From contig JBMOKY010000001.1 in assembly GCA_049325535.1 (NCBI GenBank), positions 621,942-685,941 on the forward strand: DNA of 64,000 nt, given 5' to 3'. The first letter of the stretch is position 1. Each line of letters opens with the position of its first letter. The notes beneath the pieces are model-generated. The model searched no databases. It saw only the letters and a list, made by a program, of their open reading frames with translations, and was not told the DNA's origin. This stretch comes from Patescibacteria group bacterium. Its GTDB lineage: Bacteria > Patescibacteriota > Patescibacteriia > UBA10025 > JAHIVO01. Position numbers and translations under genes: made by a program. Of the stretch, positions 13,947 to 63,263 are shown one piece after another.

Positions 13947-14492
13947 ATGCTATACTTTTTCCAGAATATGACTCCCGAAACAACAGTTCCGCAACCAGCA
14001 CCAAAACCGACAGGAAAAAAGCTCCGCATCGGCTGGTTTTCATTTTCCTGCTGCGAAGATTCTACCGTCGTTTTTACCGAGCTGATGAATGACCGCTGGG
14101 AGCTATGGAAAAAAGTGCTGGACATCCGGCATGCCCGAGTGCTACAAACGCATAATGTACTTGACCAGCTGGATGTAGCCTTCATCGAGGGGGCACTCGC
14201 TTCGCAGGATCACGTCGACCGGGTCAAAGAAATCCGATCCAAATCCACGAAAGTTGTAGCCATCGGCGCCTGCGCCTGCGACGGCGTGCCGTCGGCTCAG
14301 CGAAACGATTTTGATGACGCACGACGCACCGAGATTCAACCGATTTTAGAACACTTTAATTATCTGGAAAAAGTGCAAAAACTATCGGATGTAATAACTG
14401 TCGACGTAAAAATTCCCGGATGCCCGATGAATGAAAAAACATTTCTCACCGCGCTTGATTCATTGCTCAAAGAATTTAACATCGTCACCTAA
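13947..14492 (+). CDS. [NiFe]-hydrogenase small subunit, short proximal-cluster-only form; start may be 13968 (MTPETT)
   Basis: Homology pattern to HoxY/MvhG/NuoB-like small subunits: KLRIGWFSFSCCEDS (first Cys motif, tandem CC), VAFIEGAL, VVAIGACACDGVP, KIPGCPMN; 181 aa; stop overlaps the large-subunit start (TAATG). Confidence 0.75.
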   Translation: MLYFFQNMTPETTVPQPAPKPTGKKLRIGWFSFSCCEDSTVVFTELMNDRWELWKKVLDIRHARVLQTHNVLDQLDVAFIEGALASQDHVDRVKEIRSKSTKVVAIGACACDGVPSAQRNDFDDARRTEIQPILEHFNYLEKVQKLSDVITVDVKIPGCPMNEKTFLTALDSLLKEFNIVT

Positions 14493-15847
14493 TGCATCTC
14501 ATCGACCTCACCCTAAACAAAGAAATTACCAAAGTGGAAGGATCAGCCACGCTGGATGTGCGTATTACCGGGGGTAAGGTTGACCATTGCCGATTCGGTA
14601 TCTCCGAGTACAAACGTTTCTATACTCAGGCTATGCGCGGTAAACCATATCGCGCACTTCCGACGCTTCTTGCCCGTATTTGCGGCACCTGCTCAAATGC
14701 CCATCTCCTAGCCAGTATCGAGGCATGCGAAAAGGCGCTTGGTTTCAAACCATCGGATCAGACGCTGCTGATGAAGAAACTGACTATGTACGGCCTGAAC
14801 ATCCGTGATCACGCGCTGCACCTGTACCTCTTCGCCATGCCGGATATGTATGGCAAAGACTCATTCCTGGAGTTTGATGAAAATAAATCAGACGAGCACC
14901 AAATTCTCCATGACGCTTTTACGATCAAGGCGGCGGGCAACTATTTATCAATCATCATCGCTGGACGATCTGTCCACGCTATCAAACCCCAAATAGGTGG
15001 TTTTGCCGGTATCCCGACGGCCGAAGAAATTACTGAAGCAATACATAAATTAGAAATGGCGCGCCCCGCAGCACTGCGAACGATCGAACGATTCATGAAA
15101 TCGCCTGACCGATTCGACCGCCAGACAAAATTTATGGCTATGGTAGCGAACCCCTTTTCATACAATGAAGGGCACATCGTCAGCGACGACGGTGACTATA
15201 TCGAAGAAAAAGACTACCGGGAGCATCTCGAACACACCATTATCCCCTATTCTCACGCTTCAGGATACAAATTCAAAGGAAGGTCATTCATGGTTGGGGC
15301 GCTGGCTCGCATCAATTTGGCGAAAGACACGCTCCACCTGGCAACTCAAAAAAGTGCCGCGGCCGCACTGGAACTCTTCCCTTCTACAAATATTTTCCAC
15401 AATAACCTAGCCCAAGCAATCGAAATATTACATTGCATCGATCATACTATAGAAATACTTCATACGCATCGATTTGAACGCGAACCACTGGGACAGCCGG
15501 CCCTCGAACGCGGGACCGGCATCGGAGTCGTTGAGGCGCCACGCGGTACACTCTACCACAAAGTGACTATCGGGAGCGATGGTAATGTGGTTGAAGGTGA
15601 GATTGTCGTACCCACCGGTCAAAATCAAATCAATATCGAGCAGGATCTGGCCCGTCGCATCGAGGAGCTGATTCCGACTGACCCGGACGCGGACAAACTG
15701 CAACTGGAACTGGAAAAATTGATACGGGCATATGATCCGTGCATGAGTTGCGCCTCGCACTTTCTTAAAGTCCGTATTGGCGGAGCAACGGTACGAGCTG
15801 GGAAAAAGCTGTTTCAGGATCCAGCTGGGACGGTATCCCAAAAATAA
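14492..15847 (+). CDS. [NiFe]-hydrogenase large (catalytic) subunit
   Basis: N-terminal L1 motif RICGTCSNAH, C-terminal L2 motif DPCMSCASH followed by a 28-aa tail (substrate of a maturation endopeptidase); 451 aa. Confidence 0.9.
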   Translation: MHLIDLTLNKEITKVEGSATLDVRITGGKVDHCRFGISEYKRFYTQAMRGKPYRALPTLLARICGTCSNAHLLASIEACEKALGFKPSDQTLLMKKLTMYGLNIRDHALHLYLFAMPDMYGKDSFLEFDENKSDEHQILHDAFTIKAAGNYLSIIIAGRSVHAIKPQIGGFAGIPTAEEITEAIHKLEMARPAALRTIERFMKSPDRFDRQTKFMAMVANPFSYNEGHIVSDDGDYIEEKDYREHLEHTIIPYSHASGYKFKGRSFMVGALARINLAKDTLHLATQKSAAAALELFPSTNIFHNNLAQAIEILHCIDHTIEILHTHRFEREPLGQPALERGTGIGVVEAPRGTLYHKVTIGSDGNVVEGEIVVPTGQNQINIEQDLARRIEELIPTDPDADKLQLELEKLIRAYDPCMSCASHFLKVRIGGATVRAGKKLFQDPAGTVSQK

Positions 15848-16145
15848 ATAATTCACGAGGTAATTTCCCCAGCTTACGCATAAACTGAAGCTGGGTACCC
15901 AAATCAAAGTCATGCATGGTCACATGCGGGGCATTTTGAAATGCCTCCAGTGATGTAAATACACTGACGAGATCCACGCCCTGCACCGTATCTATGATGT
16001 ACAGCCGCTCCGGCATATCCCATTCATCCAGCGGATCTTGATGGATAAATAAGTGGTGCGGAAATACCTGGGCCAACCGCGGAAGCAGTCGAACCGGCAC
16101 CGCATCCTCAGACAAATCTGGATTACCAAAAACCCATACCTGCAT
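15765..16145 (-). CDS. hydrogenase maturation endopeptidase (HycI/HybD/HoxW family)
   Basis: About 126 aa with VFGNPDLSEDA (GxGN...D/E), IIDTV and MHDFDL (metal-ligand Asp/His positions) and IFGIPS, the arrangement of hydrogenase C-terminal proteases; convergent, 3' end overlaps the large-subunit tail by about 80 nt. Confidence 0.6.
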   Translation of the reverse strand: MQVWVFGNPDLSEDAVPVRLLPRLAQVFPHHLFIHQDPLDEWDMPERLYIIDTVQGVDLVSVFTSLEAFQNAPHVTMHDFDLGTQLQFMRKLGKLPRELFIFGIPSQLDPETAFSQLVPLLRQYGL

Positions 16146-16148
16146 AGG

Positions 16149-16958
16149 TCAGAGCGTTTGATTGGCTAATTGCAAATGTTTTTGGGTGTAGTATTCAAGC
16201 CAGCGCACATTTGCCGGTGTAATGATCTCGCAGGGCATACCCCAATGCATGCTGATCATATCACCCACTGAAAGCTCTTCAAATGTGTGATCATCGTCGA
16301 GCCGCCGTACCACACTGACTGACTCAGTCGGCCCCAAATACAAACGGTGACCATCCACCATGAGCGGCTTGCGATCAACCGTAATTTTTGGCCCGGTAAT
16401 GGATGTCACCGAGCCCCAGCTGATGCGGCACGCGTCCATACTCTCGAGCGTATGTAATATCTCAAAATGTCCCGTGCGTTTATACACATTGAAGACGTGA
16501 AATGAATGGTGCATGCGGGCGCCACGGGGAAGTTTTTCAGTCAGCTCATCAAAACTTTTCGGCTGAATCTTTTTTTTCAAGCCAAGTACGTCGCGTAAAT
16601 GTGAGTAAAACGTATTGGGCGAGATAGTTTCCAGGAGCTGATTACCCAGCCAATACGCCTCCACGACACGTAGGTCAAACGGATCGGCGATGTGATTTGC
16701 TTTAGCGATGGTCTGCAAGTATGGATACAGTGTCCGAAACCCTCCCAGAATTGCATTGAGCCCGGCGTCGGTGGCATTTGCATCGATATATGATCCCAGC
16801 TCCCGCTGCATGTCAGGACCACACATCCTGAGCTTATTTGGTCCAAAGGCATACCGGGCGCACTTGCTGACGCCATCGACACTAGTTGTCAGCACCGACT
16901 GCATTGGATGGGACATGTGAGTGGTTTCGACGTACTTCCCAGAGCAGGAGGAATACAC
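16149..16958 (-). CDS. hypothetical protein co-transcribed with the hydrogenase maturation protease
   Basis: 269-aa ORF 3 nt upstream of the protease on the same strand; no family recognised (contains CARYAFGPNKLRMCGPD); start may be an internal Met because of overlap with the EamA gene. Confidence 0.5.
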   Translation of the reverse strand: MYSSCSGKYVETTHMSHPMQSVLTTSVDGVSKCARYAFGPNKLRMCGPDMQRELGSYIDANATDAGLNAILGGFRTLYPYLQTIAKANHIADPFDLRVVEAYWLGNQLLETISPNTFYSHLRDVLGLKKKIQPKSFDELTEKLPRGARMHHSFHVFNVYKRTGHFEILHTLESMDACRISWGSVTSITGPKITVDRKPLMVDGHRLYLGPTESVSVVRRLDDDHTFEELSVGDMISMHWGMPCEIITPANVRWLEYYTQKHLQLANQTL

Positions 16959-17805
16959 CGAGCAGCATAGCCGCCGCGCTCGTCACCTGGGCGTGCGTCA
17001 TCGTATTATCCAAAAAAAGTTGCGAGAGTATATTGGTGATGAGGGAGGCAGGAACCAGCAGACTCGCTACCAGCGTGGCCGGTGCCCGCTTCAAGGCGCT
17101 GTACCAGGTGGTCACATATCCAAAAAGCAGAACCGCTGAAATAAGTGTCCAAATCCACTGCACGCCAGTGAGCCCTATCAGCATGTGGCCATCACCGCGC
17201 ACCAAAATATAGCCTAGCAATATGATGGAACCGATGACCATCCGAGCAGCAGCAACTGTCATGCTGCTCACCTGTAGCAACACTTTCTTTGCAATGATAT
17301 TTTCCGCCGCCCAAAATAGCGTCGCCCCCAGTATGAGCAATTCGCCAGTGCCCCATCGGAAACTATTGATTCCGCCCAGGGCAAAATTACCAAAAACGAG
17401 CAGCAAGAGAGCACTCGCCTGAAGAGCACCGATGCGTTCGCGCAGCATTGGTACAGCGAGCAATGCCACCCAAATAAATAGTGTCTTATGGATGAGGCTG
17501 GCGCTCAGGGCGCTGGTCATGGTGAGGCCAGTAAAAAACATGGCGAACGGAATGCTGCCGCCGACAATACCAATGGCTATGAGGAGAGCCCACTGCCGAC
17601 GGGACAGGTGCATGAGCTCCTTCATTTTTCGAAATAATACAATCGCACCCACCAAGAGCAGGCCAACTGCGGCATTTTTGAGAAATGTAAATACAACCGG
17701 ATCATTGGCAGCACTGACGCCCACTTTGGCGATGACATTTGAAACCCCGGAAATAATGGCTGTGCCGAGCGCCAGGATGACGGCAATACCGATTTTGTTA
17801 TTCAT
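16882..17805 (-). CDS. EamA/DMT-family transporter
   Basis: Ten TM helices in two 5-TM EamA repeats. Confidence 0.75.
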   Translation of the reverse strand: MNNKIGIAVILALGTAIISGVSNVIAKVGVSAANDPVVFTFLKNAAVGLLLVGAIVLFRKMKELMHLSRRQWALLIAIGIVGGSIPFAMFFTGLTMTSALSASLIHKTLFIWVALLAVPMLRERIGALQASALLLLVFGNFALGGINSFRWGTGELLILGATLFWAAENIIAKKVLLQVSSMTVAAARMVIGSIILLGYILVRGDGHMLIGLTGVQWIWTLISAVLLFGYVTTWYSALKRAPATLVASLLVPASLITNILSQLFLDNTMTHAQVTSAAAMLLGVFLLLWEVRRNHSHVPSNAVGADN

Positions 17806-18508: not shown

Positions 18509-21500
18509 CTAATGCATAGTGGTCATAAATATTCCACCCTGAAACACCGGCGAATAGGCATAAAATTCTTTACGGATAAAATTGAAATTGGAAATGCTGT
18601 ATATCCGCACTAGCGGACTGCTCTGTGACCTGACGCCAACTAAAATTTCATCAGCACGATCATAATCAATATTCCCCGTGGCGACGCTTACGCCACCGCG
18701 AAATTGTGAAAGAAAAACGATAAATCCAGGATGAATGACACCCATCACCCCATTTTTAGTCCGACCAAATACCCGCACGTGTGGACCGCCAGCGACAGTA
18801 CCAGTTACGATTTCATCCAATCCATCGCCGTTGACATCTCCACAGGCGACGGTGATACCACCACGATAGCCCGGATCATAGGCCATCAAGCCCAGCGTTA
18901 CCGGCCGGAACTCGCGGTTACGGATGCCAAAGATGCGCAATTGGGGCCCGCCGGCCCGAGCCGGACCGGTAACCACCTCATCAATGCCATCGCCCTCAAT
19001 ATCACAGGTAGCCAGCGAAATACCGCCTCTGAACCGTTCGTCGTATGCCCAAAAACTTCTGACCAATGGAACAAACGCGCCCTCTCGGTATCCAAACACC
19101 CGTACCTGCGGTCCGCCGCCGCCCATCGGGCTGACTACGATTTCGCCCTCTCCATTGCCATCAAAATCTCCAACCGCAAGCGATACCCCACCCCGGAACC
19201 CTTCATCAAACGCATAAAACTCATTGAGCAATGAACCATTTCGACGGAAAACGCGTACCAGCGGCGGACTACCCGGCCCAGGAGCGGTGATGATTTCATC
19301 GTGCCCGTCCCCACCGAGATCACCCGCGGCTACCGATATACCGCTCCGCAGAGCACTGTCATATGCGAAAAATTGGCTCACCACCGTGCCATGACGATCA
19401 AACACCCGCACCTGCGGTCCGCCGCCATTGTTTGGCGCGGTGACGATATAGGTATCCACCTGAACCCGGAAACTGACAAGCGCGGCAGATGCGTCAATAT
19501 TTCCGGCAGTGTCCCGTGCCCGGACATACACTGTATGCGCGCCATTTGACAGTGTATGCAGCGTCACGCTAGTCTGCGCGCTCCAGGCTGACCAGGATCC
19601 ACTATCGAGGCGGTATGAGTAGCGTAACTGACTGGTCGGCGTGCTATCATCACTCCCTGTCCACGTGATAGTCACCACGGAGCTCTTCACTGCGGAGCGC
19701 GGGTAGGACACGAGTCGGGTATGTGGCGCCTCGTCAATCGGAACAGTACTCGTACAACTACGCGTGGTGCTCGGACGTTTAGCAATGGTGCCGCAGGCAT
19801 TCGCATCGGTACACGTTCGCGACTGACTACCACTGGCACAGGTGGACCAGCTGCCGCAAGACCATGATTCTGTGCACACCGGAACACTGCACGACTGACT
19901 CAACGCGGGACGGCTGATCATTGTCCCACAGGCATTCGCATCGGTACACGTTCGCGACTGACTACCACTGGCACAGGCGGACCAGCTGCCGCAAGACCAT
20001 GATTCAGTGCAGGAAAGAGTAATAAATGTCGCATCACTACTGGTGGCTAGGTTATCCGAACCATCACGGGACCTGACTCGATAATGATACGTCGTACCCG
20101 GCGTCAAGCCAGACAAAACACGACTATGGGACGTAGTAAGTACACTGTCCAGTCCAGTACTGGAGCCATAGGCGGCGGTGAGACCGTACTCCACTTGTGT
20201 GTCAGCCTGCTCATTCGTCGTCCAGGTGACGGTGGCGACCGCTTGGCCGATCGAGCCGACCGATACGTCGGAAATCACCGGAGCGGTCATATCAACCACA
20301 GCGTCAGTACGCTCTACTGCTCCGAGATCCGGAGCGCTTCCCTGCCAGTGCCGGCATCCGGTTTGATCAGGGTCGACATCATCCGACTGCGGACAATGGT
20401 AGCCGGCGATAATTTCACCTTGGTCAATAGCCGGACTCACTGACTGGAGTTGATAATTATGAGCGGCTTTATTCAGAAATAACGGGTCAGATTCGAAACT
20501 GTCCGCATCCTGGCTTGATGCCGTTTGCCAGGCTCCGAGCGTGGCATAGGTCGTCAGGGCGCTGGCCCGGTTTCCGGCAGTGCGCATGGCAAATGCCGTC
20601 GGACTGCTCGGGTGGTAGAAGAGATTATGGTTTGAAACGGCATTTGAAAATGAATTCCAATACAGTGAGATAAAACGGGTGCCCTGGGGTGAGGTGTAGG
20701 TTGGCACCAGATTTGAAATAATGTTATTTTTCGCCGTCAGATACGCTTCATCAAGATTGCACCCGCCCTGGGCGTCTGCCTCTGTCGTCACATGCAGACC
20801 GGACGTATCGACAATCGTATTATGGTACACCGCATACCGATTGTCCCCGCAGCCGTTAAAAATCGCGTAGCCACTGGCTTTTTGATCGGTTCGTGAAATG
20901 ATATTGAAAAAAATATTACCCTCAATGGTGCCGGCAACTTGTCCAGTGGCAGTCGGCCAACCGAGCCAGATACCTTCACGAGCGTCATGAATGACATTAT
21001 TTTTGACCGTGATGTCGATATCGCCGCGTTTCAGAGCGATCGGCTGGGCGATATTATAAAATTCATTGCCCTCTATCAGACTATCCATGACACCATACCA
21101 CTCGATGCCAGCCCCGAGATGCGCGGCTTCAAATCGCCAATCACCATATGACGGCCCGCGGTCACTGCCCGCGTCATGAATCAGATTATCCTTGATGACG
21201 TACCCAGGAGTATTTGGCAGATACGCCGCACCAGTGGCGCTGCCATTGTAAATTGCCGCGGGATTGCCGAGACAATAGCTGTCCCCAGTAGTAAAGGCGA
21301 TTTCGTTGTTTTCTATGGTGATATCCCCTGGATCGTCCTCGTACGGACTAAATGTCAACGCCCGGCCGTTTGATTGCATCAGAGTCATGTTACTCAATTC
21401 GAAATGGTACACGGACGGATGAGCAGAATATTCGCCAACCCTGACAATCGGACGCTGCGAGCATTCGATCGTGTGACTGGCCGGATTGTCGCTGTCGGGC

Positions 21501-22117
21501 ATCCACACATAGAGGTAATCAGTCAATTCGTCATACCAATATTCCCCCGCCTCATCTAAATCATCGAGTGTATCTTCCTGCACGGTTGGGTCGGCACGCA
21601 ACAACCATAACGAACGGTCGATCCAGCAGTTGGTATTATTAACTGAATAAATGTCGTTGCCGTCATAGCGGCACTGTGTCGGCGCGTCAAATTGGGCTCG
21701 ATATATGCTCCCGGAATAGAGCGACCATGACGCCGGGTCAATTTCGTCGCTGCCTAAAATGATGGTCTGCCCATAGTCCGTGGAATATCCCGAATAGATC
21801 GTCGGCTGCGCAGCATCCACGCCTGCTTTCGGAATTAGTTCTTCGCGATACTCGCCCTTGATCATTACCGTATCCCCCGCGGTATGAGCGGAATTTGCCC
21901 GATCGATGGTGCACCATGGGTGGTCAATATCGTTTTCCCCGGTCGTATAAGCGTCATCACAATCTATGTGCGTATTATCCACGTAATACACATTGCCCGC
22001 CGCTCTCGTCTCTATGGGATCGGCATACGCCAATGTCAACACTGTCAATCCGATGACCACGATTCCCCAGATAAGTATGCACCACTCGCGATATTTAATG
22101 ATACCCTTCATAGGCAA
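18509..22117 (-). CDS. giant secreted/surface protein: right-handed beta-helix, Fn3 domains, tandem Cys-rich repeats and C-terminal FG-GAP beta-propeller
   Basis: Signal/anchor N-terminus; pectate-lyase-like NNxI/GNxF repeats (IENNEIAF, IKDNLIHDAG, IEGNEFYN, VKNNVIHDA); Fn3-like segments; two near-identical 45-aa Cys repeats (CTESWSCGSWSxCASGSQSRTCTDANACG); six to seven FG-GAP repeats (GDLGGDGHDEI, GDFDGNGEGEI, CDIEGDGIDEV, GDVNGDGLDEI with GGPQxRVF). Confidence 0.8.
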   Translation of the reverse strand: MPMKGIIKYREWCILIWGIVVIGLTVLTLAYADPIETRAAGNVYYVDNTHIDCDDAYTTGENDIDHPWCTIDRANSAHTAGDTVMIKGEYREELIPKAGVDAAQPTIYSGYSTDYGQTIILGSDEIDPASWSLYSGSIYRAQFDAPTQCRYDGNDIYSVNNTNCWIDRSLWLLRADPTVQEDTLDDLDEAGEYWYDELTDYLYVWMPDSDNPASHTIECSQRPIVRVGEYSAHPSVYHFELSNMTLMQSNGRALTFSPYEDDPGDITIENNEIAFTTGDSYCLGNPAAIYNGSATGAAYLPNTPGYVIKDNLIHDAGSDRGPSYGDWRFEAAHLGAGIEWYGVMDSLIEGNEFYNIAQPIALKRGDIDITVKNNVIHDAREGIWLGWPTATGQVAGTIEGNIFFNIISRTDQKASGYAIFNGCGDNRYAVYHNTIVDTSGLHVTTEADAQGGCNLDEAYLTAKNNIISNLVPTYTSPQGTRFISLYWNSFSNAVSNHNLFYHPSSPTAFAMRTAGNRASALTTYATLGAWQTASSQDADSFESDPLFLNKAAHNYQLQSVSPAIDQGEIIAGYHCPQSDDVDPDQTGCRHWQGSAPDLGAVERTDAVVDMTAPVISDVSVGSIGQAVATVTWTTNEQADTQVEYGLTAAYGSSTGLDSVLTTSHSRVLSGLTPGTTYHYRVRSRDGSDNLATSSDATFITLSCTESWSCGSWSACASGSQSRTCTDANACGTMISRPALSQSCSVPVCTESWSCGSWSTCASGSQSRTCTDANACGTIAKRPSTTRSCTSTVPIDEAPHTRLVSYPRSAVKSSVVTITWTGSDDSTPTSQLRYSYRLDSGSWSAWSAQTSVTLHTLSNGAHTVYVRARDTAGNIDASAALVSFRVQVDTYIVTAPNNGGGPQVRVFDRHGTVVSQFFAYDSALRSGISVAAGDLGGDGHDEIITAPGPGSPPLVRVFRRNGSLLNEFYAFDEGFRGGVSLAVGDFDGNGEGEIVVSPMGGGGPQVRVFGYREGAFVPLVRSFWAYDERFRGGISLATCDIEGDGIDEVVTGPARAGGPQLRIFGIRNREFRPVTLGLMAYDPGYRGGITVACGDVNGDGLDEIVTGTVAGGPHVRVFGRTKNGVMGVIHPGFIVFLSQFRGGVSVATGNIDYDRADEILVGVRSQSSPLVRIYSISNFNFIRKEFYAYSPVFQGGIFMTTMH
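19793..20062 (-). repeat. intragenic tandem direct repeat, 2 x 135 bp, encoding the Cys-rich 45-aa repeats
   Basis: Copy 1 starts at 19793 and copy 2 at 19928, nearly identical (single-base differences visible, for example caggtgg versus caggcgg). Confidence 0.6.
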
Positions 22118-25603: not shown

Positions 25604-27091
25604 CTAACGAGACAGATCGTCAACCGGTACTGGCATAGTCGCCGTCCCCGATCCCGCACTCCCCGTCACTACTCCCTGGGTTTCAATCAGTTCCGCCGCC
25701 AGCGGCACCACTACCCGCTGCTTCCAGGGACTTTTCTCAGGGTCAGCCGGGTCAATAGCAAATGCCAGTGCCGGTACGTATAGTTCATTGGTCCCGGTAT
25801 CATCGTACTGACTCATGATTATATAGGCAAATTCGGGGGCCTGAAGACGAATCTCAACCGTATTGGTAGCCGGCTCCGGCTGATACTCATATAAACCACC
25901 GCGCTCGATGATGGCGCGAAGCTCATCCACATCAGTTTCATTGGCATATTCCGAACTGTCAAAATCCATCGACTGTAGAGGATAGACAGAGGAAACACGC
26001 AGATCCGGTAAGCTCAGTGACACTTGCAGACCCTGCTGCTCACCATACGCACCATATACCGAAAGCCCGCCTATCTGTAGGGGGAAGATGACGGTCATAC
26101 TGGAAACATATGGTGCTGATTCACGGTACAGCAGCGGTTCTACTCCACCGTATCCAGCGACAGAGACGACTTCTGGCTCACCATACCCACTATAGGAAAT
26201 GTCGTGGGCATCGAGAAACGACCTGGCGGCCATAATCAGTTTTTCATCTGCGGGTATATCAGCGGTTCCCTGGGGCGTGGCAGCGGTCTCCGCGCAGTCC
26301 TCGCCGACACAATCGACCGCCACATCTCGGGTGGCATAGAGCATGTCACTGCTGATGCTGATCAGGCCATCCTGCACGTTGATATCGATAGCATACCCAC
26401 CCTCGGCAGTCTGGGCCAATGAAACGTGGCGCGTTTCTAAATCAGCAAAAGAAGACATGCGCATCAAATCCAGACCATAGGATTCTAGGTTTGCGGACAC
26501 TGAGGTAGTGGGACGGATACGGCGTACCACCTGGCTGGACGCCGGAATATCAGGAAACTCTCCACTATAAACATAGCGGTAGCTTGTAATTTCAGCATTC
26601 TGATCCGGCACAGGGAACGTACCGGGTTCTATGGCCGTTGCTGTGGTATCCGATGCCATTTCATCGGCGACATTGGTTGACTGGCGAGAGGATGATGGAC
26701 TACTCGATGATAAATCGCCAAACGCATTCGCTGACAGCTGCTGGATACCGCCTGGGGGGGTAAAAATATCATCAGTGCCTGAGGGTTGCCACCACACGTA
26801 CCAGGAAACTCCCACCACAACCACCAAGACCAGCAGACTCGCAGCTGGCACCATGGGATGAGCGCTGAGCCATCCAAACCACGAGGTTCGTACCGCTGAA
26901 CCGGCTTCCGGCTGAATAGTACGCAGCCGTTCGCGCAAAGCAGCGCGGAATTGCTCATCGATATGAACGGTCGGTTGGCTCTGGAGCAGTGCCGTGACGA
27001 TTTGCCGGACACGATCTTCATGTCCGAGGAGACGATGGTCATCGGCCACCAGCTCACTAACCAATTGATCAATACGTTCGGGGGAAATCAT
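25604..27091 (-). CDS. putative anti-sigma factor with large extracytoplasmic domain
   Basis: Directly downstream of the ECF sigma gene; cytoplasmic N-terminal domain, one TM helix (PMVPAASLLVLVVVVGVSWYVWW), about 390-aa extracytoplasmic part. Confidence 0.55.
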   Translation of the reverse strand: MISPERIDQLVSELVADDHRLLGHEDRVRQIVTALLQSQPTVHIDEQFRAALRERLRTIQPEAGSAVRTSWFGWLSAHPMVPAASLLVLVVVVGVSWYVWWQPSGTDDIFTPPGGIQQLSANAFGDLSSSSPSSSRQSTNVADEMASDTTATAIEPGTFPVPDQNAEITSYRYVYSGEFPDIPASSQVVRRIRPTTSVSANLESYGLDLMRMSSFADLETRHVSLAQTAEGGYAIDINVQDGLISISSDMLYATRDVAVDCVGEDCAETAATPQGTADIPADEKLIMAARSFLDAHDISYSGYGEPEVVSVAGYGGVEPLLYRESAPYVSSMTVIFPLQIGGLSVYGAYGEQQGLQVSLSLPDLRVSSVYPLQSMDFDSSEYANETDVDELRAIIERGGLYEYQPEPATNTVEIRLQAPEFAYIIMSQYDDTGTNELYVPALAFAIDPADPEKSPWKQRVVVPLAAELIETQGVVTGSAGSGTATMPVPVDDLSR

Positions 27092-27100
27092 ATGCTTGTA

Positions 27101-27664
27101 TTATATAGTTATCGTGATAATAAATATCAGTGTGGCCACAGCAGCCAATGCAATTCGCGTTTGCCGGAGCACCCGTGAAATTTGCATCTTACATTGGCCC
27201 TCGGTCATGCCGGCTATCTGGGCGATTTCACGGTATGACAAGCCATCCCATATGCGCAGCAATACCACATCGCGATGTCGAGGCGATAATCCAGACAGAT
27301 ATTGGCGCACCTCCGACAGCAGTGCCAATTGTTCAGACGAATTTTCCGTACGTGGTTCACGACTGGTTTGCAGTATCACATCGAGGGGGATGACGGCTTT
27401 TGCAGTACGGTAATGATCGATGATGGTGTGCCGGGCGATGCGGTACAGCCAGGCGCGAAACGATCCCCCGCGATACCTTCCGATATGCCCCAGTGCCTTG
27501 ATAAATACAGCACTGGTCAGATCTTCCGCCGTTTCTCGGTGCAGCGTCCGCGCATATACAAACGCGTACATTCGATCGACGTAGTCGTCGTACAATTCAC
27601 CAAATCGTTCCATATCCCCTGCCTGGCAGGCAGCGATGGCCTCCGTTTCTCGTACGGTATCCAT
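27101..27664 (-). CDS. ECF-type RNA polymerase sigma-70 factor
   Basis: Region 2 (FRAWLYRIARHTIIDHYR) and region 4 HTH (LSYREIAQIAGMTEGQCKMQISRVLRQ). Confidence 0.85.
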   Translation of the reverse strand: MDTVRETEAIAACQAGDMERFGELYDDYVDRMYAFVYARTLHRETAEDLTSAVFIKALGHIGRYRGGSFRAWLYRIARHTIIDHYRTAKAVIPLDVILQTSREPRTENSSEQLALLSEVRQYLSGLSPRHRDVVLLRIWDGLSYREIAQIAGMTEGQCKMQISRVLRQTRIALAAVATLIFIITITI

Positions 27665-29684: not shown

Positions 29685-31016
29685 TTAACTAATGCGAATA
29701 TATGACCAGCCTTTGATAAATTCCCGTACTGTGGTTATTTCTTTTTTATACGGATCCAAAACCTTGGCGTCCAGCAGCCGCGGGTCTACCCTGTCCAATT
29801 TGGTCGGCAAAATGCCGGGATTGCCTTCGGCGCCACCAGATAGTTGCTTCAGCTCCGTCACGATATCCTCCCATTCCATATTCGATATACCAGCCGGACG
29901 GATAAGGAGAGAAGTGTGATTGAGTAAATTGCTAAATTTCTCGCCGGTAATCGAGAGCATGGCTTCATGTTTTTGTCCTGGTTCATCCGGATTGTCTCCG
30001 AGATGCATTTCTGACGATAAATTCCGCTCCAGCCACTGCATCGAATCACCACAGCGTCCGTAATTATGCACATCAACAAAATCAGCACTATTGCCATTGA
30101 ACCCATGGTCCAGGATGGCCACGACGTGCTGCCACCAAAACTGCGGATTGAGCATGTTCGTCGAGGTTTCGATTGGACTCATCTGTTGATGAAACCAAGC
30201 GTCAACCTTCTCAGGGGCAAGCAATTCATCTATCTGCGCTTCGGTATAGCGGTAGCCGAGCCGCTGACGAATTCTCTCAATTTCATCTTGGCGATTTATG
30301 ATTTGCCGCGATAGCAATGCGCCGGTTGCAGGGTCAAACGTATAAGTGGTTTCTATCGGTCCTTCGACTTTTATGGTTTGCGATACTTCCCCGCCCTGCC
30401 GCACATCGATCTGACAGATGCAATCCGGAGGATTCCCACTAGCCGAAATGACGGTAGCGTTGTTCCGGCCTCGCAGATATTTTGCGCATACGTCTGTACA
30501 ATTCGCGCCACCGGTGCCGCTGGTACTCAGTGACGGCGCGACAGAATTATCCATATTCACATTCTGATTTACCGACTGATTGACATTCGCTGATGTGTTA
30601 GTGGACGGGGTGGAAGCGGAATTGACATCCCTATTTGTCACCGATGTGGTATTTGTATTTACCGTGGCGGATGGCGTGTCACCCGGGCAATCTTCATCTA
30701 TGTGAACACAGGCATAGAGACATCCGGGACACGCGGAATAATCGTTGCCATAGTAGCAGGCCTTATTCGGGTCAGCTGGATTTTCATTGATACTTCCCGC
30801 TGATCCACAGATGCATCGACTGGTATACGAGTAGTGAGCATCGGGGACTAAACCACAGTTTATCTGCACACAGCCGACGCCGCTGGATGGCTGAAATTCA
30901 TATCCTGTCGGACAGTCGTCAATCGCTGCAGCAGCAGGTATAGCGACGATGAGCATGATCAGCATGCCCAGACAACCGCCCACCCAAACCAATGATGAAT
31001 ATTTCATTGTTACCAT
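29685..31016 (-). CDS. hypothetical secreted Cys-rich protein
   Basis: 443 aa; signal peptide, N-terminal Cys-rich module (CPTGYEF...CVQINCG...CICG...CPGCLYAC), S/T/N-rich linker, C-terminal globular domain of unknown family. Confidence 0.55.
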   Translation of the reverse strand: MVTMKYSSLVWVGGCLGMLIMLIVAIPAAAAIDDCPTGYEFQPSSGVGCVQINCGLVPDAHYSYTSRCICGSAGSINENPADPNKACYYGNDYSACPGCLYACVHIDEDCPGDTPSATVNTNTTSVTNRDVNSASTPSTNTSANVNQSVNQNVNMDNSVAPSLSTSGTGGANCTDVCAKYLRGRNNATVISASGNPPDCICQIDVRQGGEVSQTIKVEGPIETTYTFDPATGALLSRQIINRQDEIERIRQRLGYRYTEAQIDELLAPEKVDAWFHQQMSPIETSTNMLNPQFWWQHVVAILDHGFNGNSADFVDVHNYGRCGDSMQWLERNLSSEMHLGDNPDEPGQKHEAMLSITGEKFSNLLNHTSLLIRPAGISNMEWEDIVTELKQLSGGAEGNPGILPTKLDRVDPRLLDAKVLDPYKKEITTVREFIKGWSYIRIS

Positions 31017-34285: not shown

Positions 34286-34821
34286 TCAATTAATTCAGGA
34301 AACTCACGTACCGGGCGGTCAGCTGAACCAAAATGGCCCCGGTCGTCATATTCATAGTACTCCGTCCGCAGCTGTTCGTGAATGTGACGCGCCTCGGCGA
34401 TGGGGATAAACGGATCGTCAATGGAGGCAAATTCGATTATCCAGCGCTGGTTTCGCCGAATCCGCTCCCATTGCCATGGGCGATCATAGTACCCACTTAC
34501 TTTTTCGCTCTGCCACCCCAGGTCGGTGTAACAAGCACCGACCAAAACCGAGCCGAGCAATTGGTGCGTTTCCGCGTAGCGCATAGCAGCCACCGCTCCT
34601 GACGAATGGCCGATGATGATCGTGTCTTCAGCCGCACCAAGCACTTCCATATATGGTAACCACACCGACGCTTTTGCTTCAATCGGGTCGGGGAAATCCG
34701 GAGCGAGAACCGGGCAACCCATATGGGTGAGCTGTTCAGCCGCCCAGGGAAACCAATGGTCGCGGCCGGTGCCACCACCATTTCCATGAATCATGAGCAC
34801 GCGCACATCCATGGCCGTCAA
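34255..34821 (-). CDS. alpha/beta serine hydrolase (RBBP9/YdeN-like)
   Basis: LMIHGNGGG...IIGHSSG nucleophile elbow, about 188 aa. Confidence 0.65.
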   Translation of the reverse strand: MTAMDVRVLMIHGNGGGTGRDHWFPWAAEQLTHMGCPVLAPDFPDPIEAKASVWLPYMEVLGAAEDTIIIGHSSGAVAAMRYAETHQLLGSVLVGACYTDLGWQSEKVSGYYDRPWQWERIRRNQRWIIEFASIDDPFIPIAEARHIHEQLRTEYYEYDDRGHFGSADRPVREFPELIDCIRHKLFVL

Positions 34822-36182
34822 ACAAGTTTTACAAACGCGCGCTGTACCACCTCGCTCATAGCCGGATGAATATGGACGCTATCGGTGATAGCCGCGACGC
34901 TTCCACCGGCGCGCATAGCCACTACTACTTCGTGAATCAGGGTCGATGCCTCAGGTCCGATGATGTGACAGCCGAGAATCAGCTGTTTTTTTTCATCAGC
35001 CAGCACTTTCACGAATCCATCCCGCTCCTGATACGCCTCACCCATGGCTGTGGAACTATAGTCAGCCCGACCGACCGTGTACGGTCGGCCTGATTGCCGC
35101 AATTCAGTTTCCGTCGCTCCCACGCCAGCTACCTGCGGATGGGAAAATACCGCGTGCGGCATGACGGCCATGTCTACGGCTATGTGCTGGTCAGTAAACA
35201 TATTTTGGATTGCGTACCGTGCTTGCCAATTCGCACTATGGCGAAACATATGACCGCCGATGACATCGCCGATGGCAAATACACCCGGGACGGATGTTTC
35301 CAGATACTCATTTACCTTGATAAATCCCCGTTCGTCTATGTCGATATCTCCGGCCCGAACCGTGGTCGTGTCAGCATTCGGCGTCACACCCGTGGCGACC
35401 AGCAGTTGGTCAGCACCGATCTCCCGTTTTCCTGTCGGGCCCTGAACGGTAACGGTGAACTGGCCGGCGGTATATTCAACCTTTGTCGCTGTATGCTTGA
35501 GTAATACCGTCTGGCTCCGGGAAAAGACATCGGTAAATACCCGTGCGACATCTTCGTCTTCCCGGTCAATCAAACGGTCACTTGCCTGCACCACGGTCAC
35601 GCGAGTACCCAATGCACTGAAAAAACCACCGAGCTCCACGCCGATATACCCTCCGCCGATGACGACGAGCTCCCGAGGTAATGTGCGTAGCCGCAGCGCT
35701 TCAGTACTAGTGAGATATGGGGTTCCGGCCAGTCCGTCGATCGATGGGATAAACGGACGCGCGCCGACAGCGATAAGTATTTTTTCCGCCGTAATATGCT
35801 CTCCATGTATCTGCAGGGTTTTTTTTCCGACAAATTCTGCATGGCCCTGATACAGTGTAATATTCGGATTACGTTTGGTGCCGCTTTCCATTTTTTGGGC
35901 ATGACTGTCGGTGTAGCCGGTCACGCGCTTCACCAAGCCCGCAAAATCAGTGCCGTCAAACGATGCCTGGAGATTAAAAATCCCCGCCTGCCGGATGGCA
36001 CGCGCGATATCAGCCGTATGCACGTATATTTTCGACGGGATGCACCCCCGGTTGAGGCAAGTTCCGCCAAGCGGGCCGTCCTCGATCAGGGCGACGCGCA
36101 TGCCTCGCTGAGCCGCAAACGACGAAATCTTTGCACCAGCGCCCGAGCCGATGACGATCACGTCAAATTGTTTTTCATTCAT
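34818..36182 (-). CDS. FAD-dependent pyridine nucleotide-disulfide oxidoreductase (dihydrolipoyl dehydrogenase / glutathione-reductase family)
   Basis: FAD-binding GSGAGA, redox-active GGTCLNRGCIPSK, NAD-binding GGGYIG, C-terminal interface domain with the HxxxxE pair. Confidence 0.8.
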   Translation of the reverse strand: MNEKQFDVIVIGSGAGAKISSFAAQRGMRVALIEDGPLGGTCLNRGCIPSKIYVHTADIARAIRQAGIFNLQASFDGTDFAGLVKRVTGYTDSHAQKMESGTKRNPNITLYQGHAEFVGKKTLQIHGEHITAEKILIAVGARPFIPSIDGLAGTPYLTSTEALRLRTLPRELVVIGGGYIGVELGGFFSALGTRVTVVQASDRLIDREDEDVARVFTDVFSRSQTVLLKHTATKVEYTAGQFTVTVQGPTGKREIGADQLLVATGVTPNADTTTVRAGDIDIDERGFIKVNEYLETSVPGVFAIGDVIGGHMFRHSANWQARYAIQNMFTDQHIAVDMAVMPHAVFSHPQVAGVGATETELRQSGRPYTVGRADYSSTAMGEAYQERDGFVKVLADEKKQLILGCHIIGPEASTLIHEVVVAMRAGGSVAAITDSVHIHPAMSEVVQRAFVKLV

Positions 36183-39464: not shown

Positions 39465-39497
39465 GCCCGGAACAATTACCGTTCCGGGCATTTTTTT
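39465..39497 (+). terminator. rho-independent terminator
   Basis: GCCCGGAAC-AATTACC-GTTCCGGGC followed by a T-run. Confidence 0.6.
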
Positions 39498-40446
39498 AGT
39501 CCGCGGCTACAAACCGAAGCTCATCCGGAGAAATGCCAAATCCTTCGATGATGGTATCATCATAGGCCTGTAACTCTTCACCCATGAAAGTAATTTTAGT
39601 CTGGCCAGTATAGTGCCGCAGCGGTATGTAATCGAAGCGGCCAAAAACATAATTGAGCAGCTCAAAGCCACCGGTGAATTTGATCATACCCTTGATGCGG
39701 TAAAACTCGGTCCGGGGGAGCGCGCGCAGTGCCGCGTCTACTTGTTCCCGGGTAAATGTCCGGTCGCTGACCAATTCTGCGATTTCCACCTCCTGCTCAT
39801 GGTGATGCACGTTCCGACCCGCATTTGCCGCGTCCACTTCCGCCTGGGTCATGAATAATTTCGTGTCCAAACCGAATATCAGATCTGGACTGATCATCCC
39901 ATGGTCGGTCTTTACTTTTGGCGTATGTGGATTGAGCTCATATACATCATCCAGGGTCTGGTCCAGCGTTCGCTCATCCACCTGTTCGTGTTTATTGATC
40001 AGGATCAAATCAGTATACTCCGCCTGAATTTTTGCGGTAAAGCTTTTGTCAGCGTAGCCTTCGAAATTAATAGCGTCGATGACGGTCACGATCGAGTCAA
40101 GTTTTAGCCGGTCTCCCATTTTTCGTATCTCCAGGGCGATCGGCGCTGGATACGCCGAGCCTGACGTCTCGATGATAATCCGGTCGGGATGATACTGTTT
40201 GAGCAGCTCATCGATGGCATTGCCCATTTTCCCCACCAAAATGCAGCACAGGCAGCCATTCAGCATCTCAGTGACTTTGATATTTGATTCTTTGGCGAGC
40301 TGTGAATCCACCGCCACGTCGCCGAATTCATTCTTGAGCCAAACCATATTGTACCCGACTGGCATCTGCTTGATCAGATTCAGTATAATCGTGGTCTTGC
40401 CACTGCCCAAGTACCCGGTAAATACGGTGACGGGGATTTTTTCCAT
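39496..40446 (-). CDS. CobW/P47K-family G3E GTPase (metal chaperone-like); start at MEKIPV, the ORF extends to 40500
   Basis: P-loop GYLGSGKTT, CxCC motif (GCLCCIL), C-terminal CobW_C-like domain. Confidence 0.8.
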   Translation of the reverse strand: MEKIPVTVFTGYLGSGKTTIILNLIKQMPVGYNMVWLKNEFGDVAVDSQLAKESNIKVTEMLNGCLCCILVGKMGNAIDELLKQYHPDRIIIETSGSAYPAPIALEIRKMGDRLKLDSIVTVIDAINFEGYADKSFTAKIQAEYTDLILINKHEQVDERTLDQTLDDVYELNPHTPKVKTDHGMISPDLIFGLDTKLFMTQAEVDAANAGRNVHHHEQEVEIAELVSDRTFTREQVDAALRALPRTEFYRIKGMIKFTGGFELLNYVFGRFDYIPLRHYTGQTKITFMGEELQAYDDTIIEGFGISPDELRFVAAD

Positions 40447-40447
40447 A

Positions 40448-41653: not shown

Positions 41654-41656
41654 GAA

Positions 41657-49174: not shown

Positions 49175-49244
49175 TCGGTGATTAATAATTAGGGGTGATG
49201 ATCGATCTGTCGACCTGCACCCCTTACTACGCCGACGTGATGAA

Positions 49245-60652: not shown

Positions 60653-60658
60653 AGCTCG

Positions 60659-62878: not shown

Positions 62879-62882
62879 ACGA

Positions 62883-63257
62883 TCATTCGTTGACGATAAT
62901 TTTCCCCTGGTACATACCCATATCACAGGTGAAGGATATTTCACCCTTTTCTTTCGGCGTGAAATCGACATCCGTCATAGCGAACGGTTTTAAGTCTTTG
63001 CGGATCCCTAGTCCGTCAAACGTCACAAATCGTGAGCACTCGGCGTCCTCCTGCCGATTGAAATGAATGCGTAATGGCACGCCAGACTGCACCGTAATCT
63101 CATTTGGATCATATGCCCCTTTAACCAATATGGTAATTTCTTGGATGGCACCCTTTATTTCTGCGCGCTCCTGACGACGCTGGAATCTGAGCCAGAGCCA
63201 AAATACCCCGATGACCAGGATTATCAGCAACGTGCCTATCATTTGGCGAGTGTCCAT
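62883..63257 (-). CDS. membrane-anchored cupredoxin_1 domain protein
   Basis: N-terminal TM then [18 protein letters not shown]-terminal cupredoxin_1 signature; 4 nt upstream of copA. Confidence 0.65.
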
Positions 63258-63263
63258 GGATAA

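What the first reader, a model, noticed from the sequence alone, without database searches (positions are those of the whole stretch)
13947..15847. Minimal two-subunit [NiFe]-hydrogenase with mixed group-3 and group-4/NuoB-like signatures
Large subunit (451 aa) has the N-terminal RICGTCSNAH motif and the C-terminal DPCMSCASH motif, followed by a cleavable 28-aa tail. An L2 motif ending in His is characteristic of groups 1-3 rather than the energy-converting group 4, which ends in D/E-R/L. Small subunit is only 181 aa, with no Tat signal and room for a single proximal cluster. Its first Cys motif is a tandem SCCEDS instead of the usual CxxC. Tandem Cys is the hallmark of complex-I NuoB and group-4 small subunits (CCxxE), while the later GACACDG and PGCP motifs are conventional. 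No diaphorase, FeS electron-transfer or membrane subunit is adjacent; upstream is a divergent ABC transporter. The electron partner is therefore unknown; a flavodoxin is encoded at 58.4 kb and ferredoxin is also possible.
Basis: partly seen in the sequence, partly recalled or inferred. Interest (0 to 1): 0.75.

Follow-up and report, generated by a model that had tools for sequence, protein, structure and literature searches.

The report
CPR "hyd2" two-subunit NiFe hydrogenase core
This is a real but already described kind of stripped-down hydrogen-metabolising enzyme found in ultra-small Patescibacteria (CPR); it is not a hybrid of two hydrogenase classes, and relatives show it normally works with a small ferredoxin, a flavin reductase and a previously unnoticed set of helper genes.

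Summary
In detail: 13947-14492 (+) and 14492-15847 (+) encode a 181-aa single-cluster small subunit and a 451-aa [NiFe] large subunit with intact L1/L2 motifs and a 28-aa tail. Both subunits are group-3b-derived (best matches are Pyrococcus/Thermococcus sulfhydrogenase), with no group-4 affinity. The pair belongs to the CPR-specific "hyd2" clade published by Jaffe et al. 2020 (truncated small subunit, no beta/gamma). The tandem CC is a clade-wide hallmark (C35 78/79, C36 74/79) that arose inside 3b-like small subunits, where CCEGC intermediates exist. It resembles complex I cluster N2, not group-4 hydrogenases, which lack it. Outside the window's subclade, 32/41 loci carry an adjacent 3-Cys ferredoxin plus ferredoxin-NAD(P) reductase, fused to the small subunit in four protein clusters, and 13 loci add pyruvate:ferredoxin oxidoreductase and acetyl-CoA synthetase. 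In the window's own subclade (0/13) and in the 64-kb window, no such partner is linked. The partner here therefore remains unresolved. Known kind, with some new details; moderate interest.

The parts
13947..14492 (+). Hydrogenase small subunit (hyd2 type), 181 aa (alternative start Met8 at 13968 gives 174 aa). It carries only the proximal-cluster domain, with four conserved Cys: C35, C36, C109 and C159 (motifs FSCCEDS, GAC, PGCP).
   Evidence: Pfam Oxidored_q6 E 3e-21. NCBIfam HydD positions 4-154 of 261. PDB P. furiosus SHI delta 9e15_A E 6e-13, N-terminal 150 aa only. Cys conservation in 79 sequences.
14492..15847 (+). [NiFe]-hydrogenase large subunit, 451 aa, group-3b-derived. L1 RICGTCSNAH at 62-71, L2 DPCMSCASH at 415-423, 28-aa C-terminal extension.
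   Evidence: Pfam NiFeSe_Hases. NCBIfam ShyA 248 bits and HydA 211 bits, against FrhA 109. PDB 5yxy_A 207 bits, SHI alpha 205, MvhA 147, HoxH 107. The exact protein P0001 is named 'Ni/Fe hydrogenase subunit alpha [Patescibacteria group bacterium]'.
15765..16145 (-). Compact (126 aa), divergent hydrogenase maturation endopeptidase-like protein. It converges on the large-subunit gene and overlaps it by 83 nt.
   Evidence: TIGR00072 E 2.9e-4, below cut-off. 26/35 family members hit Pfam HycI and 24/35 hit NCBIfam maturation-protease models, with no competing family. Invariant G7 N8 D14 D52 H78 D79. Present in 70/76 loci, always on the opposite strand downstream of the large subunit.
16149..16904 (-). 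DUF6390 protein, 251 aa (the ORF extends to 16958, but the 100%-identical database protein starts at the internal Met). It has a helical N-domain with invariant Cys/His (C28, H102, H132, H133, H136) and a C-terminal OB-fold (C159, H220, C225).
16882..17805 (-). EamA/DMT-family membrane transporter, 307 aa. It is the first gene of the convergent EamA-DUF6390-protease operon and overlaps DUF6390 by 23 nt.
   Evidence: Pfam EamA E 6e-33. Present in 39/65 loci, and 12/13 in the window's subclade. EamA::DUF6390 fusion proteins of 559 and 563 aa.

Best explanation
The window encodes the catalytic core of the CPR/Patescibacteria-specific 'hyd2' enzyme, a soluble cytoplasmic [NiFe]-hydrogenase derived from group 3b. 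SHOWN: the large subunit has a complete Ni-Fe binding site. The small subunit has lost the medial/distal-cluster domain and keeps four conserved Cys (C35, C36, C109, C159). A convergent operon encoding EamA, DUF6390 and a protease-like protein is conserved with it. INFERRED: H2 <-> 2H+ + 2e- occurs at the NiFe site. Electrons pass through one proximal [4Fe-4S] cluster ligated by the tandem C35/C36 plus C109 and C159. This arrangement resembles complex I cluster N2 but evolved inside 3b small subunits: C36 is the canonical first Cys, the canonical second Cys is now Ser39, and C35 is new. Electrons then leave to an external carrier. In most of the clade that carrier is a 3-Cys ([3Fe-4S]-type) ferredoxin working with an FAD ferredoxin-NAD(P)+ reductase. 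These two functionally replace the missing beta/gamma subunits and the lost clusters. The module often sits beside pyruvate:ferredoxin oxidoreductase and ADP-forming acetyl-CoA synthetase. The likely role is therefore reversible H2/NAD(P)H/ferredoxin redox balancing during fermentation, most probably H2 evolution. The 126-aa protein most likely removes the large subunit's C-terminal tail after metal insertion. EamA-DUF6390 is most likely an accessory module for maturation or metal delivery. In this genome's subclade the ferredoxin/reductase module is not linked to the cassette, so the actual partner here is unresolved; it could be a ferredoxin or reductase encoded elsewhere, or the flavodoxin at 58.4 kb.
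For: Identity. All of the best 120 large-subunit homologs that carry a source name are Patescibacteria or unclassified 'bacterium' MAGs, at 60-85% identity, and at least 582 species-representative genomes carry one. Literature: hyd2 has a truncated small subunit (mean 164 aa), no beta/gamma, and PF07992 and FeS families near a subset. CC motif: C35 78/79, C36 74/79, C109 and C159 79/79. Motif series SCEGC, CCEGC, CCEDS among 150 representatives. Neighbourhood over 83 loci: protease 70/76, DUF6390 59/68, EamA 39/65, FdR 32/54, Fd 28/54. FdR belongs to the BphA4/putidaredoxin-reductase family. Fd is CxxAxxC..CP with three Cys in 34/36. Rosetta-stone fusions: FdR::small in P0420, P0459, P0494 and P0497, confirmed in two independent assemblies; also TrxR-like::small and NuoF-like::small. 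PFOR plus ACD lie divergent and directly upstream in 13 loci. Reciprocal DUF6390 contexts.
Against: No biochemistry exists for any hyd2 enzyme. In the window's own subclade, 0/13 loci have Fd or FdR within 10 kb. None was found among the window's ORFs, and none of the top 120 FdR homologs lies on a contig of those genomes, so the partner model may not apply here. C36 is Ser in about 5% of sequences, and CSEDS variants exist, so C36 may not be an obligatory ligand. A 3-Cys ferredoxin may have too high a potential for efficient H2 evolution, so direction is uncertain. Support for the protease is below threshold in every member. The HypC link of DUF6390 is weak.
Confidence: 0.75

Rival explanations
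1. One reading: a chimeric or intermediate hydrogenase combining a group-3 large subunit with a group-4/NuoB-type small subunit, suggesting an evolutionary link to energy-converting hydrogenases or complex I.
For: Tandem CC followed by Glu (CCE) resembles the NuoB CCxxE motif at the sequence level. The Pfam family Oxidored_q6 is shared with NuoB.
Against: The small subunit's full-length similarity is to group 3 small subunits: SHI delta E 6e-13, FrhG, MvhG, HoxY. NuoB and MbhJ match only around the C-terminal GCP motif (E 0.009-0.8). Group-4 hydrogenases lack consecutive Cys. CCEGC intermediates occur in mostly full-length 3b-like small subunits. No membrane or antiporter-like subunits appear in any of 83 loci.
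Confidence: 0.03
2. In the window's subclade, which lacks linked Fd/FdR, the heterodimer works with a different system. EamA-DUF6390 would then be the physiological redox partner or substrate-handling module, not a maturation factor. For example, H2-driven reduction of a compound moved by the EamA transporter at a His/Cys metal site in DUF6390, or a sulfhydrogenase-like reduction of sulfur species.
For: DUF6390 and EamA are the most constant neighbours in the subclade (13/13 and 12/13). DUF6390 has ten invariant or near-invariant Cys/His. EamA::DUF6390 fusions tie it to a transporter. In L095, Fd-FdR-EamA-DUF6390-protease form one operon, which could mean that DUF6390 receives electrons. 3b enzymes are classically called sulfhydrogenases.
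Confidence: 0.12
3. The cassette in this subclade is a relic or a non-catalytic (sensory or regulatory) hydrogenase-like pair that has lost its electron-transfer partners.
For: No partner lies within 10 kb in 13/13 subclade loci, nor in the part of the contig covered by the window, which extends about 14 kb upstream and 48 kb downstream of the cassette. No hyp genes are in the window.
Against: All Ni-Fe ligands and 150 or more invariant large-subunit positions are retained across the clade, including the subclade. The four small-subunit Cys are intact. The five-gene block keeps its synteny at 66-86% identity while the flanks change, which indicates purifying selection. No regulator or kinase is consistently adjacent.
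Confidence: 0.07

Closest known systems
CPR 'hyd2' subclade of group 3b [NiFe]-hydrogenases (Jaffe et al. 2020, BMC Biol 18:69, PMC7304191)
   Same: Patescibacteria origin. The large subunit is 3b-related. The small subunit is consistently truncated (~164 aa; here the core is ~158 aa). No adjacent beta/gamma subunits. PF07992 and FeS proteins lie near a subset of loci.
   Different: Nothing differs in kind; the window is a member. The paper left function and partners open, and its context plots counted only same-strand genes. As far as I could find, it does not report the CC motif, the protease-DUF6390-EamA block, the FdR::small fusions or the PFOR/ACD linkage.
Group 3b sulfhydrogenase I/II of Pyrococcus/Thermococcus (HydABGD; PDB 9e15, 9nez, 5yxy)
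   Same: Closest solved relatives of both subunits. Cytoplasmic. Same L1/L2 motifs and C-terminal processing. Linked to NAD(P)H.
   Different: The canonical enzyme is an alpha-beta-gamma-delta tetramer. Its ~260-aa delta subunit has three clusters and a CxxC first motif (SCYGC). Here delta is cut to the proximal-cluster domain, the motif is CCEDS, and beta/gamma are absent. In relatives they are functionally replaced by a non-homologous ferredoxin plus an FdR-type flavoprotein.
Single-cluster small subunits of group 3d HoxY (PDB 5xf9_C, 189 aa) and Acetomicrobium mobile HydS (PDB 7t2r_E, 179 aa)
   Same: Small subunit of ~180 aa carrying only the proximal cluster and handing electrons to a flavoprotein module. 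The NuoF-like::small fusion P0247 mimics the HoxF/HoxY logic.
   Different: The large subunit is much closer to 3b (205 bits) than to HoxH (107) or HydL (122). The usual flavoprotein is an FdR (glutathione-reductase fold), not a NuoF/NuoE/NuoG-type diaphorase.
Complex I subunit NuoB/NDUFS7 (cluster N2)
   Same: Four-Cys pattern CC...C...C(P), with two consecutive Cys in the first motif followed by an acidic residue.
   Different: Not a member. Similarity is limited to the shared fold and the C-terminal GCP motif. Here the partner is a true Ni-Fe large subunit, not a quinone-binding NuoD. The tandem Cys appears to have arisen independently within 3b small subunits, through CCEGC forms.
HypC/HupF [NiFe] maturation chaperones (PF01455; PDB 2z1c, 2ot2), compared with DUF6390
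   Same: The DUF6390 C-domain is an OB-fold. T. kodakarensis HypC superposes over 70 of its 71 residues at 1.9 A. A conserved Cys lies at the start of the barrel (C159) and a conserved His in a GDxVxxH-like motif (H220). It is genomically linked to a hydrogenase and its protease.
   Different: The Cys is internal rather than the N-terminal Cys2 of HypC. The domain is fused behind a ~155-aa His/Cys-rich helical domain with no structural match. Pfam HupF_HypC is hit only below threshold (4/10 members), and hhalign probability is 12%.
Class-I P450 / dioxygenase-type electron chains (putidaredoxin reductase, BphA4, and their ferredoxins)
   Same: The FdR of relatives is a clear family member (E 1e-35 to 1e-38). 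It is paired with a small single-cluster ferredoxin encoded immediately upstream.
   Different: The terminal partner is a hydrogenase, not an oxygenase. In several lineages the reductase is fused to the hydrogenase small subunit.

Membership tests
[NiFe]-hydrogenase large subunit (PF00374) | N-terminal RxCGxCxxxH and C-terminal DPCxxCxxH Ni-Fe ligand motifs, and the family HMM above threshold | tested here: met
   Motifs at residues 62-71 and 415-423. Pfam 97.2 bits against a cut-off of 25.8.
Group 3b (sulfhydrogenase-type) [NiFe]-hydrogenase | Large subunit most similar to 3b alpha subunits | tested here: met
   ShyA 248 bits and HydA 211 bits against FrhA 109 and VhuA 87. PDB 3b structures 202-207 bits against MvhA 147 and HoxH 107. 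The equivalog cut-offs (700/880 bits) are not reached, so it is a divergent relative. No tree or HydDB run was possible.
Group 3b (sulfhydrogenase-type) [NiFe]-hydrogenase | Delta small subunit of ~260 aa with proximal, medial and distal clusters and a CxxC first motif | tested here: not met
   Only positions 4-154 of 261 of the HydD profile are matched and the protein ends there. Four conserved Cys only. The motif is CCEDS instead of CxxC.
Group 3b (sulfhydrogenase-type) [NiFe]-hydrogenase | Beta (FeS) and gamma (FAD/NAD(P)) subunits HydB/HydG encoded with alpha/delta | tested here: not met
   None among the window ORFs scanned. An unbiased clustering of ORFs in 83 related loci recovers no such family.
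CPR 'hyd2' clade (Jaffe et al. 2020) | CPR host, 3b-related large subunit, small subunit truncated to ~164 aa, no adjacent beta/gamma | tested here: met
   Searches (all relatives are Patescibacteria; core median 158 aa), and the paper text. Placement on the authors' tree was not tested.
Group 4 energy-converting [NiFe]-hydrogenase | Large subunit related to HycE/MbhL/EchE/NuoD, small subunit of HycG/MbhJ type, membrane (antiporter-like) subunits in the operon | tested here: not met
   No group-4 or NuoD chain among PDB hits at E<1e-5. MbhJ E 0.33, covering only 24 residues. No membrane subunits other than an EamA transporter. Consecutive Cys are absent in membrane-bound hydrogenases according to PMC9474812.
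Complex I NuoB/NDUFS7 | Tandem Cys ligating N2, plus full-length NuoB homology and a NuoD partner | tested here: not met
   Tandem Cys is present, but NuoB models match only residues ~137-175 (E 2e-5 to 1e-3 in NCBIfam; PDB E 0.009). The partner is a Ni-Fe large subunit.
Hydrogenase maturation endopeptidase (HybD/HycI/HoxW; TIGR00072, PF01750) | Family HMM above threshold, Glu/Asp-Asp-His metal site, HybD-like alpha/beta fold | tested here: inconclusive
   All hits are below threshold (window protein 20.9 bits against a cut-off of 47.45), but they are consistent: 26/35 members hit HycI and 24/35 hit TIGR00072/NF045519. Invariant D14, D52 and H78 fit the pattern. The profile found no PDB protease. 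The single-sequence AF2 model had pLDDT 53, so the fold could not be tested.
DUF6390 (PF19927) | Family HMM above threshold | tested here: met
   208.7 bits against a cut-off of 25.
HypC/HupF (PF01455) | ~80-aa OB-fold with N-terminal Cys2 and a conserved His, and the family HMM above threshold | tested here: not met
Ferredoxin-NAD(P)+ reductase of the BphA4/putidaredoxin-reductase type (partner in relatives) | PF07992 plus Reductase_C/Rubredoxin_C domains, with full-length similarity to solved FdRs | tested here: met
   For L005 and L026 FdR: PDB E 1e-35 to 1e-38 over ~400 residues and the Pfam domain list. Not present in the window itself: the only PF07992 protein there (34818-36182) is a different class with a dimerisation domain and scores 28 bits to the probe.

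The most novel reading that the evidence does not exclude
hyd2 is a modular 'plug-in' hydrogenase. Its single proximal cluster would be ligated by consecutive cysteines, as in complex I cluster N2, but evolved independently inside group 3b. That would give a small soluble system in which to study what tandem-Cys ligation does to an FeS cluster next to a real Ni-Fe site. Its assembly would depend on a CPR-specific EamA-DUF6390 module: a membrane transporter coupled to a His/Cys-rich protein with a HypC-like OB-fold. That would be a previously unrecognised route for [NiFe] maturation or metal delivery. In the window's subclade, which has shed the linked ferredoxin/reductase, the core would use a still unknown partner.
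Probability: 0.3. Interest if true: 0.7.

Novelty: new member of a known kind. Interest (0 to 1): 0.42.

Why it matters
Patescibacteria are abundant, host-dependent fermenters, and their hydrogen metabolism affects subsurface and groundwater H2 budgets. The hyd2 enzyme occurs in at least 582 species-level genomes, but its function was left open in the literature. The comparative evidence here gives it a concrete, testable wiring: [3Fe-4S]-type ferredoxin plus an FdR-type reductase, often beside PFOR and ACD. It attaches a functionless Pfam family (DUF6390) and an EamA transporter to [NiFe]-hydrogenase biology. It also identifies a natural hydrogenase with a complex-I-like tandem-Cys cluster motif. 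As a finding about this window, however, it is a further example of a described clade.

Full report
OBSERVATION. The 451-aa product of 14492-15847 (+) passes Pfam NiFeSe_Hases. It carries RICGTCSNAH at residues 62-71 and DPCMSCASH at 415-423, followed by a 28-aa tail. The 181-aa product of 13947-14492 (+) passes Pfam Oxidored_q6 (E 3e-21). A start at Met8 (13968) would give 174 aa, closer to the 160-172 aa of its relatives. It aligns only with the first ~150 residues of 261-266-aa sulfhydrogenase delta subunits and ends there, so only the proximal-cluster domain is present. The divergent ABC-2 transporter and the flavodoxin at 58360-58899 are also real.

WHAT THE SUBUNITS ARE. The large subunit scores best against group 3b models: ShyA 248 bits and HydA 211 bits, against FrhA 109. 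It also scores best against group 3b structures: T. kodakarensis cytosolic hydrogenase 207 bits and P. furiosus SHI alpha 205 bits, against MvhA 147, A. mobile HydL 122 and HoxH 107. No group-4 or NuoD chain appears at E<1e-5. The small subunit's best structural relatives are SHI delta (E 6e-13), then FrhG, MvhG and HoxY. NuoB and MbhJ match only around the C-terminal GCP motif (E 0.009-0.8). Both subunits are therefore group-3b-derived, and there is no sequence evidence for a group-4 component.

WHOSE IT IS, AND THE LITERATURE. The exact large subunit is on record as 'Ni/Fe hydrogenase subunit alpha [Patescibacteria group bacterium]' on a 1.15-Mb contig. Among the best 120 homologs (60-85% identity, ~430 aa), every source name that identifies an organism is CPR or an unclassified 'bacterium' MAG. 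At least 582 species-representative genomes carry a relative. Jaffe et al. 2020 (PMC7304191) already split the CPR group-3b enzymes into hyd1 and hyd2. They describe hyd2 as sitting on a long branch, with consistently truncated small subunits (mean 164 aa) and no proximal beta/gamma subunits. They note a PF07992 family and an FeS family near a subset of loci and state that the 'function remains uncertain'. The window's cassette fits this description; the small-subunit core has a median of 158 aa.

THE TANDEM CYS. In 79 small subunits taken from related loci, C35 is present in 78, C36 in 74 (Ser in 4), and C109 and C159 in all 79. C111, the second Cys of GACAC, is present in only 21. The conserved ligand set is therefore CC...C...C, within the motif F[ST]CCED[SN]T. 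In alignments to SHI delta and to short CEGC-type relatives, C36 occupies the position of the canonical first Cys, Ser39 replaces the canonical second Cys, and C35 is an added residue one position upstream.

An exhaustive search of 1.84 billion representatives shows that this motif is plastic across 3b-like small subunits. The counts among 150 representatives are: SCEGC 37, CCEGC 14 (mostly full-length proteins of ~250-265 aa), CCEDS 46, CDEGC 5, CSEDS 6 and GCEGD 8. The CCEGC forms are plausible intermediates, so the tandem Cys arose within the 3b lineage.

The premise that CC is a group-4 hallmark is wrong. Steinhilper et al. 2022 state that the consecutive coordinating cysteines typical of complex I cluster N2 are absent in membrane-bound hydrogenases. 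The resemblance is therefore to complex I NuoB only, and it is best read as convergence. Whether both C35 and C36 ligate the cluster is inferred, not shown. The CSEDS variants suggest that C35 is the more indispensable of the two.

A 126-aa ORF (15765-16145, -) converges on the large-subunit gene and overlaps its 3' end by 83 nt. Behind it on the same strand lie DUF6390 (16149-16904; Pfam E 1e-61) and an EamA transporter (16882-17805). This block stays with the hydrogenase while the flanking genes change. Over 83 unique loci, counting only loci with enough flanking DNA, the protease-like gene is present in 70/76, DUF6390 in 59/68 and EamA in 39/65.

The 126-aa family is a divergent hydrogenase maturation endopeptidase candidate. 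Every individual hit is below threshold, but 26/35 members hit Pfam HycI and 24/35 hit the NCBIfam maturation-protease models, with no competing family. G7, N8, D14, D52 and H78 are invariant. A profile search of PDB sequences and a single-sequence AF2 model gave nothing usable.

Two further results tie the block together. EamA::DUF6390 fusion proteins exist (559 and 563 aa). Starting from three distant DUF6390 proteins, two lie in the full cassette, and the third lies in a single Fd-FdR-EamA-DUF6390-protease operon.

THE ELECTRON PARTNER IN RELATIVES. Outside the window's subclade, 32/41 loci carry a ~415-aa PF07992 flavoprotein, usually with a ~90-aa ferredoxin immediately before it. The pair lies either directly upstream of the small subunit (Fd>FdR>small>large) or just beyond EamA on the other strand. 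The flavoprotein is a clear member of the BphA4 / putidaredoxin-reductase / rubredoxin-reductase family (E 1e-35 to 1e-38). The ferredoxin has CxxAxxC...CP with exactly three Cys in 34/36 cases. From general knowledge, that is the signature of single-cluster [3Fe-4S] ferredoxins.

Four separate protein clusters are FdR::small-subunit fusions (574-622 aa). All keep FSCCEDN, and their linkers differ. One was confirmed in two independent assemblies, inside the operon NifS-NifU-NifU_C-Fd-[FdR::small]-large. Two other flavoprotein modules are also found fused to hyd2-type small subunits: a thioredoxin-reductase-like protein (P0242) and a NuoF-like FMN/[4Fe-4S] module (P0247).

Unbiased clustering of all ORFs in the loci adds a two-subunit 2-oxoacid:ferredoxin oxidoreductase and an ADP-forming acetyl-CoA synthetase. 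These lie divergent and directly upstream of the small subunit in 13 loci. NifS and NifU occur in ~15 loci.

MECHANISM. Shown: a complete Ni-Fe site, a single-cluster small subunit, and the gene linkages and fusions above. Inferred: electrons move between the Ni-Fe site and one proximal [4Fe-4S] cluster, then to a [3Fe-4S]-type ferredoxin, and then to FAD/NAD(P)H through the reductase. The ferredoxin and reductase together stand in for the lost medial/distal clusters and the beta/gamma subunits of canonical 3b enzymes. PFOR can feed the same ferredoxin pool. The most likely role is reversible redox balancing during pyruvate fermentation, probably net H2 evolution. I put that direction at about 0.6, because a three-Cys ferredoxin may have a rather positive potential. 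The tail of the large subunit is most likely removed by the 126-aa protease-like protein. EamA-DUF6390 most likely acts in maturation or metal delivery (about 0.55), rather than as a redox partner (about 0.12-0.15).

THE WINDOW'S OWN SUBCLADE. Among the 13 closest loci with enough flanking DNA (about 66% identity or more), none has Fd or FdR within 10 kb, while all 13 keep the protease and DUF6390 and 12/13 keep EamA. The window covers about 14 kb upstream and 48 kb downstream of the cassette. It contains no Fd, FdR, PFOR, HydB/HydG or hyp gene. What it does contain is a flavodoxin, a COG0523 GTPase and an unrelated class-I flavoprotein disulfide reductase. The statement 'partner unknown' therefore stands for this genome. 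The strong conservation of all catalytic residues and of synteny argues against a relic.

VERDICT. This is a genuine feature, correctly observed. It is a further member of the published CPR hyd2 clade, not a group-3/group-4 mosaic. As far as the searchable literature shows, the following appear to be new:
- the clade-wide, complex-I-like tandem-Cys motif and its origin within 3b small subunits;
- the conserved protease-DUF6390-EamA block, including the EamA::DUF6390 fusions;
- the Rosetta-stone fusions that identify an FdR-type reductase, together with a 3-Cys ferredoxin, as the replacement diaphorase;
- the frequent PFOR/ACD linkage.
Interest is moderate (0.42). The central claim is already known, but the system is uncharacterised biochemically and now has specific, testable predictions.

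Noticed in passing
P0242 (500 aa) and P0247 (702 aa): Two further kinds of flavoprotein are fused to hyd2-type small subunits. P0242 is a thioredoxin-reductase-like protein with a CVNC motif. P0247 is a NuoF-like Complex1_51K + NADH_4Fe-4S module joined through a long Pro/Thr-rich linker, and its small-subunit part carries CSEDS instead of CCEDS.
   Followed up: partly
L038:11726-13405 (-) and L039:11642-13333 (-): EamA::DUF6390 fusion proteins of 559 and 563 aa, with the transporter at the N-terminus and DUF6390 at the C-terminus. In the window the two genes overlap by 23 nt.
   Followed up: yes
L095:140-3972 (+): Fd, FdR, EamA, DUF6390 and the protease-like gene form one same-strand operon. 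No hydrogenase genes lie in the remaining 3.3 kb of this 7.3-kb contig.
   Followed up: partly
L054, L064, L071, L078, L080, L082, L085, L087 and five other loci: Compact island: NifS-NifU-Fd-Fd-FdR on one strand, ACD-OFORbeta-OFORalpha on the other, then small-large, then protease-DUF6390. This amounts to a pyruvate-to-acetate + ATP + H2 gene set.
   Followed up: partly
Representatives P0241-P0390: The first FeS-ligand motif of 3b-like small subunits is unusually variable: SCEGC, CCEGC, CCEDS, CDEGC, CSEDS and GCEGD. Asp or Ser sits at positions that are Cys elsewhere, which suggests non-Cys ligation or altered clusters in some lineages.
   Followed up: partly
window 14271-14279 (small-subunit residues 109-111, GACAC): The extra Cys111 is enriched in the window's subclade that lacks a linked FdR (11/19) compared with other hyd2 loci (10/60), but it is not exclusive to it. 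FrhG has a similar CAC.
   Followed up: partly
L007, L032, L042, L048, L053: A NicO-like (PF03824, weak) putative Ni/Co transporter gene lies upstream of the cassette or between the small- and large-subunit genes in some loci. hypC and hypD follow the cassette in L007. None of these is in the window.
   Followed up: no
window 59591-63869 (-): Copper-handling cluster: DsbD_2 + cupredoxin protein, HMA-domain P-type ATPase (770 aa), a second cupredoxin, and an ArsR-type regulator with a YHS domain.
   Followed up: no
window 39496-42244 (-): A COG0523/CobW-family GTPase (334 aa) lies next to an MFS transporter that is split into two ORFs (401 aa and 195 aa), possibly a frameshift or a split gene. 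A peroxiredoxin and an AI-2E transporter follow.
   Followed up: no
window 18509-22117 (-): A 1202-aa ORF with a signal-anchor-like N-terminus, a tandemly duplicated Cys-rich segment (CTESWSCGSWS.CASGSQSRTCTDANACGT) and C-terminal FG-GAP/VCBS-like repeats. This was read from the translation and not scanned against any family.
   Followed up: no
window 25604-27091, 29685-31016, 48626-50021 (-): Several sizeable ORFs (495, 443, 209 and 258 aa) have no Pfam family at E<=0.001. ECF-type sigma factors lie nearby at 27101-27664 and 50018-50608.
   Followed up: no
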